Shown one piece after another: positions 402 to 21,767 of a stretch of 32,000 bases of DNA. Position numbers and translations under genes: made by a program. This DNA comes from Candidatus Saccharimonadota bacterium. GTDB taxonomy: Bacteria > Bacteroidota > Bacteroidia > Cytophagales > Amoebophilaceae. The notes beneath the pieces were generated by a model that made no database searches, was not told where the DNA came from, and saw nothing but the letters and a program-made list of their open reading frames with translations. Every line of letters begins with the position of its first letter. Positions within the stretch are counted from its first letter, which is position 1. The stretch spans positions 120,001 through 152,000 of the forward strand of contig NZ_CP022339.1 of NCBI RefSeq assembly GCF_003351905.1, read 5' to 3'.

Positions 402-1749
402 GGAAGTGTTCAATTAACTGTGTCAGTTTCGGGCTTCACGTCAACTCAGATTTGACTCTTCCAGGAAAAAAGATGTCTATCTGAGATATGGTCAGTGCCC
501 AGTTTCTGAGCGGCATAGTCCATTTATCCTCCATCTTCTTGATAGCGCAATATACTGATTTATACAAAGCATTGACACTGGTAAATGCCCCTTTTGTTTT
601 GGTAAACTGTCTAATTTGTCTATGGAGGCTTTCTATTGGATTGGTCGTATAAATTAGCCTTCTGACAGGATCTGAATATTTAAAGTAACCAGACAAATGC
701 TCCCAGTTGTTTTGCCAAGATTTGATAACCATTGGATACTTTTCTCCCCATTTTTCTTCTAATTCCAATAGATAATGTTCTGCAACTTCCTTATTTGAAG
801 CTTGATATACTTGCTTTAAATCAGTTAAAAAACGTTTTACATCTTTGCTAGCTACATACTTGATGGAATTGCGTATCTGGTGTACTACACAGACCTGCAC
901 CTGTGCATTGGGAAAAGCGTTATTAATGGCTGCAGGGAAGCTTTTTAGTCCATCAACACAGGCAATAAGGATATCTTCTACACCCCTTGCCTTAAGCTCG
1001 TTGAGTACACCTAACCAGAAATTAGCTCCCTCACTTTCAGATAAATAGAAGCCTAACACTTCTTTTTTACCCTCTTGATCTATGCCTAATAAGGTATACA
1101 GACATTTACTTACACATTTCCCATCTTCTTTAACCTTAAAAAACATACCATCCATAAAAACTATGGGGTAGACCGATTGAAGAGGACGGTTACGCCATTC
1201 ATTTATTACTGGCAATAAGCTATCTGTAATAGCCGATATTTCAGCAGCTGATACTTTATGATCATAGATTTCTTCAATATGAGCGGCTATAGACTTATAG
1301 CTCATACCACTAGAAAACATGCTTAAAATCTTGGTTTCCAGTTCAGGATGAAGATTTGTTTGACGCTTTTTAACTATTTGTGGATCGAAACTACCTGTTC
1401 TATCTCTAGGGGTTACCAAGTCAAAGGAACCAGAGCTTGTACGAAAAGTTTTACAACTTTTACCATTCCTTCGATTATTTACTATCCTCTCACTAGACAA
1501 ATGATGGGCCATCTCACCTTCTAGACTCGCCTCTAGAAGCTTTTTTATCAGAGGGGTTAATGCCCCACCTTTGCCTGTCAATGGCTTACCTAAACGGATA
1601 GAGGACAAAATGTTTTCCTCCAAATCTTTATAATCTACTAAACCAACGTAATCATTGTTCATATGCTCTTCCATGTCTAAAAACCTTTAGTCGTTAATTA
1701 TTTAATTTATAACTCTTTTAGGAATTGACACAGTTCATCGAACACTTCC
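402..1749 (-). mobile_element. IS256-family (Mutator-type) insertion sequence, about 1.35 kb
   Basis: A single transposase ORF is bracketed by imperfect terminal inverted repeats. The left repeat is GGAAGTGTTCAATTAACTGTGTCA (402-425). The reverse complement of 1726-1749 is GGAAGTGTTCGATGAACTGTGTCA, giving 22/24 identical. Size and IR length fit the IS256 family. No flanking direct repeat was found (AGATATAG versus AAATGGCT). Confidence 0.8.
436..1674 (-). CDS. IS256/Mutator-family transposase
   Basis: The 412-aa ORF has the typical family N-terminus (LTGKGGALTPLIKKLLEASLEGEMAHHL). The central region (VYPIVFMDGMFFKV, DILIACVDGLKSFPAAI, VQVCVVHQIRN) and the C-terminal TTNPIESLHRQIR motif also match the family. 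Confidence 0.9.
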   Translation of the reverse strand: MEEHMNNDYVGLVDYKDLEENILSSIRLGKPLTGKGGALTPLIKKLLEASLEGEMAHHLSSERIVNNRRNGKSCKTFRTSSGSFDLVTPRDRTGSFDPQIVKKRQTNLHPELETKILSMFSSGMSYKSIAAHIEEIYDHKVSAAEISAITDSLLPVINEWRNRPLQSVYPIVFMDGMFFKVKEDGKCVSKCLYTLLGIDQEGKKEVLGFYLSESEGANFWLGVLNELKARGVEDILIACVDGLKSFPAAINNAFPNAQVQVCVVHQIRNSIKYVASKDVKRFLTDLKQVYQASNKEVAEHYLLELEEKWGEKYPMVIKSWQNNWEHLSGYFKYSDPVRRLIYTTNPIESLHRQIRQFTKTKGAFTSVNALYKSVYCAIKKMEDKWTMPLRNWALTISQIDIFFPGRVKSELT

Positions 1750-16646: not shown

Positions 16647-16654
16647 CATTGACT

Positions 16655-17587
16655 ATGCTAGCTATTTTTTTTAAATGCCTATTGTCTAATAAGTACAAGA
16701 TTTTTTGTTTGTTTTTTTGTTTAAGCCTATTTGCGTGTGCTGGTCATACTACGGACCAACCATTTACTATTTTAACCACCACAGGTATGCTCGGAGATGC
16801 TGTTAAAAACATTGTAAAAGAGGATGCACAAGTGGTCAGCCTTATGGGGCCTGGTATAGATCCGCATACCTATCAAACGACTCAAAAAGATGTGCAACAG
16901 CTTAGGTGTGCAAGTATGATATTTTATAATGGTCTTGACTTAGAGGGAAAAATGACGAATTTGTTGAAAGAAGTCGCCAAAGATAAAGCGGTGTATGCGG
17001 TTAGTGATGCCCTGAATAAAACAGCGCTACTATGTGATGGTCCTGTTGGGATAGACCCCCATATCTGGTTTGATGTCAATATATGGAAACAGATAGTTGG
17101 TTTTATTAGCCAAAAGCTACAAGCAGCCAGGCCTGAATCAGCGGCTTATTATAAAAGTAATACATTGGCTTATATGGAAGAACTAACGCAGTTACATCAA
17201 TCGGTTACTGCTCAAATTCAATCTATTCCAGAAAAACAGCGGGTATTGATTACGGCACATGATGCTTTTGGTTACTTTGGCAAGGCTTATGGTATAGAAG
17301 TAGTTGGTTTACAGGGTATTTCTACTGTATCTGAGTGTGGGTTACAAGATATTAAACGCATTGTAGACCTTATTATCAATCGGAATGTTAAAGCGGTTTT
17401 TTTTGAAACGTCTGTTTCAGACAAATCTATGCGGGCGGTACTGGAAGGGTGTGCCCGTTATGGGCATAAGGTAACGGTAGGAGGGTACCTCTATTCAGAT
17501 GCGCTTGGTGCGCCTGATACCTTAGAAGGTAGCTATTGTGGGATGATCCACACCAATACTACAACAATTGTCAATGCATTAAGATAA
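16655..17587 (+). CDS. Metal (Mn/Zn/Fe) ABC transporter substrate-binding lipoprotein, TroA/ZnuA/PsaA cluster, copy 1
   Basis: Lipobox LFAC. Metal-ligand blocks GPGIDPHTYQ, GIDPHIWFD, ITAHDAFGYF and FFETSVSDK. The ORF track starts at a TTG at 16649, so the ATG at 16655 is used here. Confidence 0.85.
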   Translation: MLAIFFKCLLSNKYKIFCLFFCLSLFACAGHTTDQPFTILTTTGMLGDAVKNIVKEDAQVVSLMGPGIDPHTYQTTQKDVQQLRCASMIFYNGLDLEGKMTNLLKEVAKDKAVYAVSDALNKTALLCDGPVGIDPHIWFDVNIWKQIVGFISQKLQAARPESAAYYKSNTLAYMEELTQLHQSVTAQIQSIPEKQRVLITAHDAFGYFGKAYGIEVVGLQGISTVSECGLQDIKRIVDLIINRNVKAVFFETSVSDKSMRAVLEGCARYGHKVTVGGYLYSDALGAPDTLEGSYCGMIHTNTTTIVNALR

Positions 17588-17763
17588 AGTGTGTATCTAA
17601 GAACGCAGTCTAAAAGGTCATAATTTTTATCTATAGAATAGCAAATTTCTAGGGAAAAAGTTAGCTTTGCATTGCCTGCTCATAAAATTATAAAGCGTGC
17701 AATCGCATGGGGTGTATAATCTTAAATATAATGTTCTGTATGATAGCCAACTTTACTAGATGC

Positions 17764-18675
17764 ATGTGGTCGAATTTGTATAAAGTTTTTTGTTTATTGG
17801 CTTGTTGGCTTTTATCCTCTTGTTTGGAGACTACTATGAATGAAAAATTTATTATTTTAACTACTACGGGTATATTAGGAGATGCTATTAAAAATATTGT
17901 AAAAGGGGATGCGCATGTAGATGTGGTTAGCCTTATGGGGCCTGGTATAGATCCGCATATGTACCAAACTACTCCAAAAGATGTGCAACAGTTTAGGCGC
18001 GCGCGTATCATATTTTATAATGGTCTTGATTTAGAAGACAAAATGAAAGATCTTTTGGCTAAAGAAAGGAAAGCGTATGCAGTTAGTGAAGCCATCAATA
18101 AAGCACAGCTATTATTTGAGGATATGTTCCCTGTTGGCATAGATCCCCATATCTGGTTTGATGTAAAGCTATGGAAACAAGTGGTTGGTTTTATCAGTCA
18201 AAAGTTGCAAGAAGTCAGACCTGAATCAGCGGTTTACTATCAAAATAATACCTTGGCGTATATGGAAGTACTAGAGCAATTGCATCAATCGGTTACTGAA
18301 CAGATTCAATCTATTCCAGAAAAACAGCGGGTATTGATTACGGCACATGATGCTTTTGGTTATTTTGGTAAAGCTTATGATATAGAAGTAGTTGGTTTGC
18401 AGGGTATTTCTACTGTATCTGAGTGTGGGTTACAAGATATCAAACGCATTGTAGCGCTTATTATAAAACGAAATGTTAAAGCGGTTTTTTTTGAAACATC
18501 TGTTTCAGACAAATCTATGCGGGCGGTACTGGAAGGGTGTGCCAATTATGGGCATGAGGTAGTAGTAGGGGGGTGTCTTTACTCAGATGCACTGGGTGCA
18601 CCTAATACTTTAGCAGGAACCTATTGTGGCATGGTTCGTGCCAATGCTACAACCATTGTTAATGCACTCAAATAA
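17764..18675 (+). CDS. Metal ABC transporter substrate-binding lipoprotein, copy 2 (tandem paralogue)
   Basis: Same ligand blocks as copy 1. Lipobox LSSC. The ORF track starts at 17707. The ATG at 17764 (MWSNLYKVFCLLAC) parallels the copy 1 signal peptide. Confidence 0.85.
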   Translation: MWSNLYKVFCLLACWLLSSCLETTMNEKFIILTTTGILGDAIKNIVKGDAHVDVVSLMGPGIDPHMYQTTPKDVQQFRRARIIFYNGLDLEDKMKDLLAKERKAYAVSEAINKAQLLFEDMFPVGIDPHIWFDVKLWKQVVGFISQKLQEVRPESAVYYQNNTLAYMEVLEQLHQSVTEQIQSIPEKQRVLITAHDAFGYFGKAYDIEVVGLQGISTVSECGLQDIKRIVALIIKRNVKAVFFETSVSDKSMRAVLEGCANYGHEVVVGGCLYSDALGAPNTLAGTYCGMVRANATTIVNALK

Positions 18676-19480: not shown

Positions 19481-19972
19481 CGCTAGTTTTTCATCTGATT
19501 CTCGCGCCGCATCATGAGAGGAAATATAGCCAGGGTAGCTAGCAAATTTAGTTTTAATATTGTGTGATACCCTTTTTTGCCAACTACCACCTTTCGTTCC
19601 ATGCAGAGGGATTAATTTAGCATGTAAATGATTGACCCCATATCCTTCAAATATAAGGGCTGTTCTGGCAACAGTTGGAAACCTACGAACCAATAAGTCG
19701 GATACTTCTTTAGCGGCTCCCATTAACCCATTGATTTCTTCTGATGTATGATCAAAAATATAGCTGCTCAGATGGCGTTTAGGTATTACTACTGTAAATC
19801 CTTCTGTGTTAGGAAATATGGATAAAAAAGCCATATAATTGTTATCTTCCCATATTTGATGACAAGGTGCTAACCCAGCTACGATTTCACAAAAGATACA
19901 TGTTTGTGTGGGTAGATCAGTAGGCATGTGCATAATGGCTGAGTGATATTTGTTTGCAAGTGTTTTAAACAT
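19454..19972 (-). CDS. HIT (histidine triad) family protein with atypical triad
   Basis: CIFCEIVAG, FLSIFPNTEGFTVVIPKRH and the motif region GVNHLHAKLIP (H-L-H-A-K instead of H-x-H-x-H). The start may be M14 or M16 rather than 19972. Confidence 0.8.
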   Translation of the reverse strand: MFKTLANKYHSAIMHMPTDLPTQTCIFCEIVAGLAPCHQIWEDNNYMAFLSIFPNTEGFTVVIPKRHLSSYIFDHTSEEINGLMGAAKEVSDLLVRRFPTVARTALIFEGYGVNHLHAKLIPLHGTKGGSWQKRVSHNIKTKFASYPGYISSHDAARESDEKLAKIANFLKS

Positions 19973-19973
19973 C

Positions 19974-20223
19974 GTATCTATTCAAGTCACTGGTTTTTTG
20001 TTAAAAGAATAGCGCTCCTGTAAAAAGTCGAGATGCAGCAAGTGGCATCTGACAGATGATTGTAAAAAATAGTTTCCTTTGAAGTCCCCAAAAAGGGGGC
20101 TTGCTGTTTTTTCAGCTGTAGGATACCACTTTCAGCGACTTTCTACCGAGGGCTTGATTTTTTACACTTTTTTATCAAGAAAAAAATAAAAATACCTTAT
20201 TAACCAGTTGCGTGAAGAGACAC
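19974..20223 (+). mobile_element. MITE-like element, copy C (full length, 250 bp) with perfect 8-bp target-site duplication
   Basis: TIRs are GTATCTATTCAAGTCACTGGTT (19974-95) and AACCAGTTGCGTGAAGAGACAC (20202-23). It is flanked on both sides by TAAACATC (19966-73 and 20224-31). Internal long inverted repeats are present. No ORF. Confidence 0.8.
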
Positions 20224-20369
20224 TAAACATCTATTTATTCCAACCGGATAAACTACTAGATGCATGAGTATAGTTTAGCTTCCATGAACTGCTTTAAATC
20301 TAGTCAACAAATCTAAATAAACCAAGCCATACCTTACATCAAATTCCATGGCAAGAGTTACGCCATGAT

Positions 20370-21428
20370 CTATTGCACATGATTAGTTTGTTGGCATGTA
20401 GCATTTTGGATCGCTACTTGTTGTGCGACCATTTCAGCCATCTTATTAAAAGGCATCATGGTCGATAGGGTACCTAAATCTCCCTGTTGGCAAATCATAG
20501 GGAGCAGGGGAATTTGGCCTAAAAAAGGTATAGATGTTTTTTCTGCCAATAGTTTTCCCCCATCTTTTCCAAAGATATAGTGGGGATGGCCTTCATCTAG
20601 GAAATAGGACATATTTTCTATTAATCCCAAGATGGGCACCTTAATCTGTTCTTTTTTAAACATGGCAATTGCCTTTATGGCATCTATTAATGCGATTTTT
20701 TGTGGTGTTGTTACTACTACAGCGCCTGTAATGGCAACCGTTTGTACCAATGTAAGGTGAATATCACTGGTTCCAGGGGGAAGATCGATCAATAAGTAGT
20801 CTAGTACGCCCCACGCTGCTTCTTGTAATAATTGCTTAAAAGCCGCACTGGCCATAGGTCCACGCCATACAATGGCCTCTTGCATATTGGACAAAAAGCC
20901 AATAGAAAGCAACTTTACATTATGACGACTTATAGGAATGATATGGTGCTTTCCTTCCTGTTTGACTACAGCTGGCTTGGCGGTTTCGCAACCCCACATG
21001 GTTGGAATAGATGGTCCAAAAATATCCCCATCTAAAAGGCCTACCTGTGCACCATGGTTGGCCAACGCGCACGCCAAATGCGTAGCAATGGTAGACTTAC
21101 CCACACCACCCTTTCCAGAAGTGATAGCAATAATATTTTTAACGCCAGGCAGTATGGAAGGCTTAAAACGCCCTGACGTAACTTTCGATTTGAACTTAAT
21201 GACAATTTCAAAATCATTCGTTACTGTTTCACGAATAGCATTTATACATGCCTGCTTTATTACTTCTTGTAATGGACAAGCTGGCGTAGTAAGTATAATG
21301 GTAAAAGAAATAGTTGCGTTATCTATACAAAGATGCTCAATCATACCCAGCGAAACGAGATCTTTCTTTAAATCAGGATCGTCTACCCTACGTAAAGCTT
21401 CTAGCACCTTTATTTGTAACGTGTTCAT
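20370..21428 (-). CDS. apbC: Mrp/ApbC/NBP35-family Fe-S cluster carrier ATPase
   Basis: N-terminal DUF59-like domain (DPDLKKDLVSLGMI), deviant Walker A SGKGGVGKST, DLPPGTSD and GLIENMSYF. Confidence 0.9.
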   Translation of the reverse strand: MNTLQIKVLEALRRVDDPDLKKDLVSLGMIEHLCIDNATISFTIILTTPACPLQEVIKQACINAIRETVTNDFEIVIKFKSKVTSGRFKPSILPGVKNIIAITSGKGGVGKSTIATHLACALANHGAQVGLLDGDIFGPSIPTMWGCETAKPAVVKQEGKHHIIPISRHNVKLLSIGFLSNMQEAIVWRGPMASAAFKQLLQEAAWGVLDYLLIDLPPGTSDIHLTLVQTVAITGAVVVTTPQKIALIDAIKAIAMFKKEQIKVPILGLIENMSYFLDEGHPHYIFGKDGGKLLAEKTSIPFLGQIPLLPMICQQGDLGTLSTMMPFNKMAEMVAQQVAIQNATCQQTNHVQ

Positions 21429-21767
21429 GTATAGTGACTTGCTTTATCTGGACAGTTTTTGCTTACTTTTATTTACTACTTTTTTTCCATTTGCTAGCCT
21501 ACCATTTTTAAATGGTAGAAGTTCATAGGTTTTTGATGGTTCATACTAGCATAAAACCTAGTTATATTTAGCCCTCTTTTATTGATAAACATACCATTAT
21601 ATTTTAGGGTTCTCTTAGTAAAGCCAGTACGATCTTTGTTTTTTTTTCGAACTAAAGCCTAATCTTATTGCTAGACATCTGATTAATTTTTTTAAAACAT
21701 GAAAACTAAGTTCCTGCAGCAAATAAATTAAAAGATTCTTGTCCGATTTTTTCAGGCCACTACGCTG

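What the first reader, a model, noticed from the sequence alone, without database searches (positions are those of the whole stretch)
19966..20231. Undescribed MITE-like family; the full-length copy has a perfect 8-bp target-site duplication and IS256-like termini
The 250-bp element at 19974-20223 has 22-bp terminal inverted repeats (GTATCTATTCAAGTCACTGGTT / reverse complement GTGTCTCTTCACGCAACTGGTT) and long internal inverted repeats. It has no ORF. It is flanked on both sides by TAAACATC (19966-73 and 20224-31), which is direct evidence of transposition. Two more copies occur in this window: 14393-14551 (inverted, internally deleted) and 15672-15788 (truncated). An 8-bp duplication is the size made by IS256-family transposases. 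An ungapped alignment of the MITE terminus with the IS256-family IR at 402-425 (GGAAGTGTTCAATTAACTGTGTCA) gives 14/22 identities by my count, including the TTCAA and ACTG cores. The element may therefore be a non-autonomous derivative mobilised by a related IS256-family transposase.
Basis: partly seen in the sequence, partly recalled or inferred. Interest (0 to 1): 0.65.

Follow-up and report, generated by a model that had tools for sequence, protein, structure and literature searches.

The report
New MITE family in Cardinium symbionts
A 250-base, gene-less mobile DNA element has jumped into the spacer between two genes of a Cardinium insect or mite symbiont; it belongs to a family of such elements that I did not find described, and it was probably moved by a transposase of the IS256 type.

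Summary
Window 19974-20223 is a 250-bp element with no coding capacity. It has 22-bp terminal inverted repeats (17/22 between the two ends), a fold-back body, and TAAACATC on both sides.

The duplication is real. In two related Cardinium lineages (cTPut and cOegib) the same Mrp-HIT spacer has no element and only one copy of the 8-mer. The reverse case also exists: cTPut carries a copy between the RNase R and Mrp genes where the window is empty.

The family has 3 copies in the window. It has dozens of copies and fragments in Cardinium cTPut, including two more perfect 8-bp duplications. Diverged copies occur in assembly JAACGD01 and in cOegib.

It is not the published Cardinium MITECca01/02, which are IS982-derived and have different ends. 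I found no description of it.

The IS256 link is supported but not proven:
- Cardinium IS256-family copies also make 8-bp duplications.
- Their ends match the MITE ends at 11-15 of 22 positions, only when aligned end to end. IS481, IS6 and IS982 ends match at 10/22 or fewer.
- Nothing beyond the ends is similar, and no full-length partner with matching ends was found.

Verdict: a real, apparently undescribed MITE family, which is a new member of a known kind. Interest is modest. Copies sit next to tRNA genes more often than expected.

The parts
19966..19973 (+). Left copy of the 8-bp target-site duplication, TAAACATC
   Evidence: Related genomes have a single copy at the empty site.
19974..20223 (+). 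Full-length 250-bp MITE (copy A). It lies between the Mrp/NBP35 gene (20370-21428, minus strand) and the HIT-family gene. It is 40 nt upstream of the HIT start codon that I place at 19933 by comparison with the cTPut gene call.
   Evidence: nhmmer matches the family model end to end, E = 1e-74. No ORF over 36 aa. No Rfam family.
19974..19995 (+). Left terminal inverted repeat, GTATCTATTCAAGTCACTGGTT
   Evidence: It differs at 1 position from the family consensus GTATCTGTTCAAGTCACTGGTT.
20007..20158 (+). Internal fold-back (long imperfect palindrome). Its tip is the G+C-rich hairpin at 20082-20102, followed by a run of T on the + strand.
   Evidence: The family model matches its own reverse strand over about positions 33-193.
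20202..20223 (-). Right terminal inverted repeat. It reads GTGTCTCTTCACGCAACTGGTT on the minus strand and differs at 4 positions from the right-end consensus GTATCTGTTCACGTTACTGGTT.
20224..20231 (+). Right copy of the 8-bp target-site duplication, TAAACATC
14393..14551 (-). Copy B: a 159-bp internally deleted member that keeps both ends and a perfect terminator-like hairpin. It lies 10 nt from tRNA-Ser(tga) at 14293-14382. It is orthologous to cTPut L014 16847-17011, so it was inserted before the two lineages split.
14552..14581 (-). Decayed 'outer' second copy of the left end (8-nt spacer plus a 22-nt end-like sequence) outside copy B. Many cTPut copies carry the intact form, GTATGTGTTCAGCGCAGTGGTT plus the spacer TTTATTAG.
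15672..15790 (+). Copy C: the left half only. Its end is interrupted by a small insertion and the rest is truncated.
   Evidence: (D5)
402..1749 (-). IS256-family insertion sequence and candidate source of a transposase. It has an intact 412-aa transposase gene (436-1674) and the ends GGAAGTGTTCAATTAACTGTGTCA and GGAAGTGTTCGATGAACTGTGTCA. This copy has no target-site duplication.
   Evidence: I2. (Transposase_mut, E = 1e-98, profile positions 19-377 of 379). (homologues of the same length).
21734..21741 (-). Empty target site (CAAGAATC) for a family member that is present in cTPut at L014 9383-9671, where it is flanked by CAAAAATC and TAAAAATC.

Best explanation
The window comes from a Cardinium endosymbiont (Bacteroidota, Amoebophilaceae); its closest sampled relative is the symbiont of the mite Tyrophagus putrescentiae (cTPut). 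The 250-bp element is a non-autonomous DNA transposon (a MITE). It has two 22-bp terminal inverted repeats around a fold-back body and encodes no protein.

Shown: it inserted into the sequence TAAACATC in the Mrp-HIT spacer after this lineage split from cTPut. The insertion duplicated 8 bp, as expected from a transposase that cuts the target with an 8-bp stagger. The family has moved in both lineages since they diverged. It is old: copies are 58-91% identical. It also decays into about 120-165-bp hairpin forms and half copies.

Inferred: the transposase was supplied in trans by an IS256-family (Mutator-type DDE) insertion sequence. It was probably a relative of the intact copy at 402-1749 rather than that copy itself.
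For: Source organism: the terminus pattern hits 10 contigs of Candidatus Cardinium sp. TP. The Mrp protein is 95% identical to cTPut and 83% to cOegib.

Transposition:
- cTPut (three assemblies) and cOegib have an empty site with one copy of the 8-mer.
- The reverse case: cTPut has a copy where the window is empty.
- Other 8-bp duplications score 8/8 at L010 7531-7788 and L012 266-523, 7/8 at L007 3804-3925 and L014 9383-9671, and 6/8 at L003 6066-6306.

Family size and spread: there are 3 copies in the window, 20 copy or fragment clusters in about 75 kb of cTPut loci chosen through the terminus, 2 clusters in a 21-kb cTPut locus not chosen that way, 5 in JAACGD01 and 2 in cOegib.

Non-coding. 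Fold-back structure.

IS256 link:
- End-anchored identity is 11-15 of 22 to four IS256-family ends from two Cardinium lineages (window and cOegib). Shifted registers give 2-8 of 20-22 compared positions.
- IS481, IS6 and IS982 ends give 10/22 or fewer.
- The binomial probability of 14 or more matches is 2.7e-4. Among all 22-mers of the window, the frequency of 14 or more matches is 1.4e-4 to 3.3e-4.
- A third IS256-family copy, on metagenome contig L032, has both ends GGAAGTGTTCGCTTAACTGTGTCA. By my hand count it matches the left-end consensus at 13/22.
- The cOegib IS256-family copy is flanked by the 8-bp duplication GCCGTATA.
- IS256-family elements make 8-9 bp duplications (PMC3189936).
- An intact IS256-family transposase gene lies in the same window.
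Against: - The ends differ from the IS256-family ends at 7-11 of 22 positions, including position 2 (GT versus GG).
- Nothing inside the ends resembles the IS; local alignment scores are within the shuffled range. The element is therefore not a simple deletion derivative, unlike MITECca01/02.
- No full-length element bounded by these ends was seen in about 390 kb of Cardinium sequence held here.
- No IS256-family transposase gene was found by tblastn in the 18 loci held at that point, which include all the cTPut loci.
- The second IS256-family type reported in cOegib (the paper lists ISCca9 and ISCca10) and the IS66, IS4, IS5 and IS1634 ends could not be compared.
- An IS481-family element that is polymorphic among cTPut assemblies also leaves a duplication of about 8 bp. 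The duplication size alone therefore does not single out IS256.
- Only 32 kb of the source genome is available.
Confidence: 0.8

Rival explanations
1. It is a MITE, but a transposase of another family moves it. Families that make duplications of about 8 bp include IS6 (ISCca2, the most abundant IS in cOegib), IS481 (polymorphic among cTPut assemblies), IS66, ISL3 and IS1595. The partner could also be an element now extinct in these genomes.
For: - IS6 makes 8-bp duplications (my own knowledge of the family).
- The cTPut IS481-family element is flanked by AGCTAAAT and is present in L015 and L016 but absent from L014.
- The MITE starts with GTA, as IS66-family ends do (my own knowledge, not tested here).
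- No IS256-family transposase gene was seen in the cTPut loci held.
- The MITE body is unrelated to the IS256-family element.
Against: End-anchored identity to the IS6 end (GGTTCTGTCGCGTCTAT) is 8-10/22. It is 5-9/22 to the IS481 end and 10/22 or fewer to the IS982 end, against 11-15/22 for IS256-family ends. IS66, ISL3 and IS1595 ends were not available for testing.
Confidence: 0.3
2. It is a copy of the already published Cardinium MITE (MITECca01 or MITECca02, derived from the IS982-family element ISCca4).
For: Same genus, similar size (about 240 bp), and no ORF.
Against: The published left ends are ACGTGAATTCGGGATT and ACCTGAGTTCGGGATT. They match the MITE ends at only 3-9 of the compared positions in any register tested. 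No match to the MITECca01 end exists in the window, even with 3 mismatches. MITECca01 was reported as confined to cOegib, whereas this family occurs in at least four lineages.
Confidence: 0.01
3. It is not mobile DNA. Instead it is a structured host repeat (REP-like, a terminator or a small-RNA gene) spread by recombination, and the flanking 8-mers are coincidence.
For: - It forms a strong hairpin.
- The short forms look like two-way terminators.
- Orthologous copies keep the stem despite changes on both arms.
- Copies lie between genes and next to tRNA genes.
Against: Precise presence/absence with one copy of the 8-mer at the empty sites. Three perfect and three near-perfect 8-bp duplications, each of a different sequence. 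Conserved terminal inverted repeats. No Rfam match. A later host use of some copies is compatible with a mobile origin.
Confidence: 0.02

Closest known systems
MITECca01 / MITECca02 of Cardinium cOegib (Halter et al. 2022, PMC9769881)
   Same: Same genus. About 240 bp, no ORF, terminal inverted repeats, many copies, mostly between genes. Presumed to be moved in trans by a resident IS.
   Different: The ends are unrelated (ACGTGAATTCGGGATT versus GTATCTGTTCAAGTCACTGGTT). The published MITEs derive visibly from the IS982-family element ISCca4, sharing sequence inside the ends, and were reported only in cOegib with 169 copies. This family shares only its ends with any IS seen here, is much more diverged (58-91% identity), occurs in at least four lineages, and makes 8-bp duplications.
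IS256-family insertion sequences of Cardinium (ISCca9/ISCca10 type; window 402-1749, cOegib L027, metagenome contig L032)
   Same: 8-bp target-site duplication. The ends share G.A..TGTTC.....ACTG..T in the same register, 11-15 of 22 positions. They co-occur in the same genome.
   Different: The IS is 1348 bp and encodes a 412-aa transposase. Its ends start GG, not GT. Nothing beyond the ends is similar.
Fold-back or palindromic bacterial MITEs such as Correia elements of Neisseria and RUP of Streptococcus pneumoniae (from my own knowledge)
   Same: Short, non-coding, terminal inverted repeats, hairpin-forming, placed between genes, and able to carry terminator-like or promoter-like signals.
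   Different: Different ends, different duplication size (2 bp, TA, for both of those) and different presumed transposases. No sequence similarity was tested or is claimed.

Membership tests
Bacterial MITE | Short (under about 500 bp) with no coding capacity | tested here: met
   250 bp. The longest overlapping ORF is 36 aa. No Rfam family.
Bacterial MITE | Terminal inverted repeats | tested here: met
   22-bp ends, 17/22 between the two ends of copy A. The ends are conserved across copies.
Bacterial MITE | Target-site duplication, confirmed by an empty site | tested here: met
   TAAACATC on both sides. cTPut and cOegib have one copy of the 8-mer and no element. A reciprocal case exists. Five further duplications score 6-8 of 8.
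Bacterial MITE | Multiple dispersed copies | tested here: met
   3 copies in the window, 20 clusters in the terminus-selected cTPut loci, and copies in JAACGD01 and cOegib. The source genome outside the window could not be searched.
Bacterial MITE | An autonomous partner with matching ends | tested here: inconclusive
   The best candidate, an IS256-family element, matches at 11-15/22 in register. No element with the same ends was found.
IS256-family-related element | 8-9 bp target-site duplication | tested here: met
   8 bp for the MITE. 8 bp (GCCGTATA) for the cOegib IS256-family copy. Family property stated in PMC3189936.
IS256-family-related element | Ends recognisably like IS256-family ends | tested here: inconclusive
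   11-15/22 in register, against 2-8 when shifted and 10 or fewer for other families. Probability about 5e-5 to 1e-3 for 13-15 matches, before correction for about 45 comparisons. This is significant but far from identity.
IS256-family-related element | Internal sequence derived from the parent IS | tested here: not met
   Local alignments of the MITE halves against both IS ends score within the shuffled range.
IS256-family-related element | Mobilised by an IS256-family transposase | not testable with these tools
   This needs a transposition or binding assay.
MITECca01/02 (IS982-derived) | Ends ACGTGAATTCGGGATT or ACCTGAGTTCGGGATT and the AGMTTGTW motif inside the left end | tested here: not met
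IS6-related element | Ends like GGTTCTGTCGCG (ISCca2) | tested here: not met
   8-10/22
IS481-related element | Ends like TGTAGTAGTCAAG | tested here: not met
   5-9/22

The most novel reading that the evidence does not exclude
The family is not scattered at random. It preferentially lands, or is preferentially kept, right beside tRNA genes. Its decayed short forms survive because their perfect hairpin, flanked by a run of A and a run of T, works as a two-way transcription terminator or insulator in these shrinking genomes. On this reading, a selfish element has been turned into regulatory punctuation in an endosymbiont.
Probability: 0.15. Interest if true: 0.55.

Novelty: new member of a known kind. 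Interest (0 to 1): 0.4.

Why it matters
Cardinium genomes are among the most repeat-rich endosymbiont genomes. The only curated MITE report for them presents MITECca01 as unique to one strain and as the first MITE seen in a maternally inherited endosymbiont.

This second family is older and more widely distributed. It is present even in that curated genome. Its insertions differ between close lineages.

- It is therefore useful as a marker of lineage history.
- It affects annotation, because copies sit in promoter and terminator positions, including 40 nt upstream of a HIT-family gene here.
- It is a candidate case of an IS256-type transposase acting on a non-autonomous partner.

It does not change the understanding of how MITEs work.

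Tried and rejected
- BLASTN of the element against PLSDB plasmids gave no match.
- The metagenome scan with the terminus pattern gave 8 hits, all bare 22-mers with no family match, so they are chance. Three of the 13 genome-scan hits (Granulosicoccus, Thermofilaceae) are chance for the same reason.
- Exact-protein look-ups of two window proteins failed, so the source genome is not in that collection or its genes are called differently there.
- I looked for an IS-sized pair of MITE-type ends in all loci and found none.
- tblastn with the window IS256-family transposase found no copy in the 18 loci held at that point, which include all the cTPut loci.
- Local alignment of the MITE body against the IS256-family ends showed nothing above shuffled sequence.
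- Rfam gave only sub-threshold small-RNA matches centred on the tip hairpin, which I rejected as chance.
- The cTPut paper (PMC12039267) uses the word 'MITE' for transposase fragments, not for this element.
- Large MITE surveys (PMC11602168, PMC10969869) mention Cardinium only by citing Halter et al..
- The sigma-70 promoter scan was not informative, and that promoter model may not apply to Bacteroidota.

Full report
**1. What is in the sequence**

TAAACATC lies at 19966-19973. A 250-bp element follows at 19974-20223, and TAAACATC occurs again at 20224-20231. The left end is GTATCTATTCAAGTCACTGGTT. The right end, read on the other strand, is GTGTCTCTTCACGCAACTGGTT. The two agree at 17 of 22 positions.

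A degenerate pattern covering both ends finds four sites in the window (14393, 14530, 19974, 20202) and none in shuffled sequence. The two other copies are real. The copy at 14393-14551 is an inverted 159-bp form with an internal deletion. The copy at about 15672-15790 is a left half whose end is interrupted.

No ORF over 36 aa overlaps the element. No Rfam family matches it. It folds as one long hairpin, z about -5 as DNA or RNA. A family model matches its own reverse strand over positions 33-193, so the body is an imperfect palindrome.

**2. Where the window comes from**

The genes include ankyrin-repeat proteins, a C2H2 zinc-finger array, RNase R, Mrp/NBP35, a HIT-family protein and a metal-uptake operon, in DNA of 33-42% G+C.

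The Mrp protein is 95% identical to that of Cardinium from the mite Tyrophagus putrescentiae (cTPut) and 83% identical to that of cOegib. The window is therefore from a Cardinium endosymbiont close to, but not the same as, cTPut.

**3. The duplication is a real transposition footprint**

I fetched the Mrp-HIT spacer from three cTPut assemblies and from cOegib and aligned them with the window.
- cTPut reads ...GGAATAAATA GATGCTTA AAACACTTCC...
- cOegib reads ...AAATAGATGATTAAAAAG...
- The window reads ...GGAATAAATA GATGTTTA [element] GATGTTTA AAACACTTGC...

The relatives carry one copy of the 8-mer and no element.

The reverse case also exists. Between RNase R and Mrp, cTPut has a member at L014 9383-9671, flanked by CAAAAATC and TAAAAATC. 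The window has only CAAGAATC there (21734-21741).

Copy B, by contrast, is shared with cTPut at the orthologous place. The family was therefore active before and after the two lineages split.

**4. The family**

A profile built from six full-length copies finds the following:
- 3 members in the window;
- 20 copy or fragment clusters in about 75 kb of cTPut loci selected through the terminus;
- 2 clusters in a 21-kb cTPut locus selected through Mrp;
- 5 clusters in 11.5 kb of assembly JAACGD01;
- 2 short copies in one of two 21-kb samples of cOegib;
- none in single 21-kb samples of four other Cardinium genomes, which is weak evidence of absence.

Full-length copies are 250-258 bp. Within cTPut they are 78-91% identical. 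Copy A is 78-84% identical to them. The JAACGD01 copy is 58-66% identical to the others.

Flanking 8-mers match 8/8 at L010 7531-7788 (TAAATGTT) and L012 266-523 (TGTGCATT). They match 7/8 at L007 3804-3925 and L014 9383-9671, and 6/8 at L003 6066-6306. The target sequences share no obvious motif.

Many copies carry a second, 'outer' left end, GTATGTGTTCAGCGCAGTGGTT, 30 nt outside the inner one and separated from it by the 8-nt spacer TTTATTAG. The L014 insertion shows that this longer form transposed with the outer end as its boundary.

**5. Which transposase**

I collected the IS ends available in Cardinium:
- the IS256-family element in the window (402-1749, intact 412-aa transposase);
- its cOegib relative, flanked by the 8-bp duplication GCCGTATA;
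- a copy on a metagenome contig;
- an IS481-family element that is present in two cTPut assemblies and absent from a third, with a duplication of about 8 bp;
- the cOegib IS6-family end;
- the published ends of the IS982-family ISCca4 and of MITECca01.

Aligned from the terminal base, the MITE ends match the IS256-family ends from the window and cOegib at 11-15 of 22 positions. Shifting by 1-2 bases drops this to 2-8 of 20-22 compared positions. All other families give 10 or fewer. The binomial probability of 14 or more matches is 2.7e-4, and only 1.4e-4 to 3.3e-4 of all 22-mers in the window reach that level. By my hand count the metagenome copy's ends match at 13/22. The shared positions, TGTTC and ACTG, are also the ones conserved within each group.

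Against this, the first two bases differ (GT versus GG). Nothing inside the ends is similar. No autonomous element with these ends was found.

I conclude that a relative of the Cardinium IS256-family elements is the most likely source of the transposase, at about even odds. The resident copy in the window is a possible but unproven helper.

**6. Comparison with what is known**

Halter et al. 2022 (PMC9769881) curated cOegib and described MITECca01 and MITECca02. These are about 240 bp, derive from the IS982-family element ISCca4, and were reported only in that strain. Their ends, ACGTGAATTCGGGATT and ACCTGAGTTCGGGATT, are unrelated to the ends seen here and are absent from the window.

The cTPut paper uses 'MITE' for transposase fragments. 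Other Cardinium genome papers and two broad MITE surveys do not describe this element. Within the searchable literature the family is undescribed, although it is present in the curated cOegib genome (L027 12719-12875).

In kind it is an ordinary bacterial fold-back MITE.

**7. Possible effects**

Copy A lies 40 nt upstream of the HIT-family start codon, which I place at 19933 by comparison with the cTPut gene call. It lies downstream of Mrp on the same strand, so it now separates the HIT gene from its former upstream DNA. No effect on expression can be inferred from sequence alone.

The short derivatives keep a perfect G+C-rich stem between a run of A and a run of T, which looks like a terminator in both directions. 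The orthologous short copies in the window and cTPut differ on both arms of that stem. This could reflect selection for the stem or self-templated repair of a palindrome.

**8. Verdict**

The MITE interpretation and the 8-bp duplication are shown. The IS256 link is supported statistically but not demonstrated. The family is a new member of a known kind, of modest interest. The association with tRNA genes is a side observation worth testing genome-wide.

Noticed in passing
window 14293-14551; L027 12719-12973; L018 304-733; L003 5911-6410; L007 3713-3925; L012 162-523: Family members sit right beside tRNA genes:
- 10 nt from tRNA-Ser(tga) in the window;
- 5 nt from tRNA-Ser(gga) in cOegib;
- on both sides of tRNA-Ser(cga) in JAACGD01;
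- between tRNA-Gly and tRNA-Leu in cTPut;
- next to tRNA-Arg and tRNA-Met in cTPut.

In the three loci not chosen through the MITE, 3 of 4 tRNA genes lie within 50 nt of a copy, although only about 2-10% of each locus is that close to one.
   Followed up: partly
window 14455-14530; L014 16880-16960; L027 12755-12830: The short (157-165 bp) derivatives keep a perfect G+C-rich hairpin between a run of A and a run of T, which looks like a terminator on both strands. The orthologous copies in the window and cTPut differ on both arms of the stem but still pair.
   Followed up: partly
L001, L003, L007, L014 (for example L014 16817-16868 and 9620-9671); window 14552-14581: Many copies have two left ends in tandem, 30 nt apart. 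The outer one is GTATGTGTTCAGCGCAGTGGTT, followed by the 8-nt spacer TTTATTAG and then the inner end. At least one insertion used the outer end as its boundary.
   Followed up: partly
window 12787-14229 (90-nt tandem repeats at 13380-14309): A 480-aa protein combines ankyrin repeats with an array of C2H2 zinc fingers encoded by eight 90-nt tandem repeats. This is a eukaryote-like protein in a bacterial symbiont. The cTPut counterpart appears shorter (L014 18274-18906, 210 aa).
   Followed up: no
L015 5767-6970 and L016, compared with L014 9846-9853: An IS481-family element (ends TGTAGTAGTCAAGATTTAATCTGACA, duplication AGCTAAAT) lies between the MITE and Mrp in two cTPut assemblies and is absent from a third. 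It has therefore moved very recently.
   Followed up: yes
window 402-1749: The IS256-family element has an intact transposase gene, but its flanks do not match (AGATATAG versus AAATGGCT). It abuts an ankyrin-repeat ORF (1707-2666). This suggests rearrangement between IS copies after insertion.
   Followed up: no
window 16649-18675: Two adjacent ZnuA-type metal-binding protein genes are tandem paralogues with 79-89% DNA identity over their repeated segments. One related assembly (L015) carries only one.
   Followed up: no
L013 3384-3792: A pair of MITE ends lies 409 bp apart, with about 245 bp of unrelated sequence between the two halves. This may be a nested insertion or a composite. I did not examine it.
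   Followed up: no
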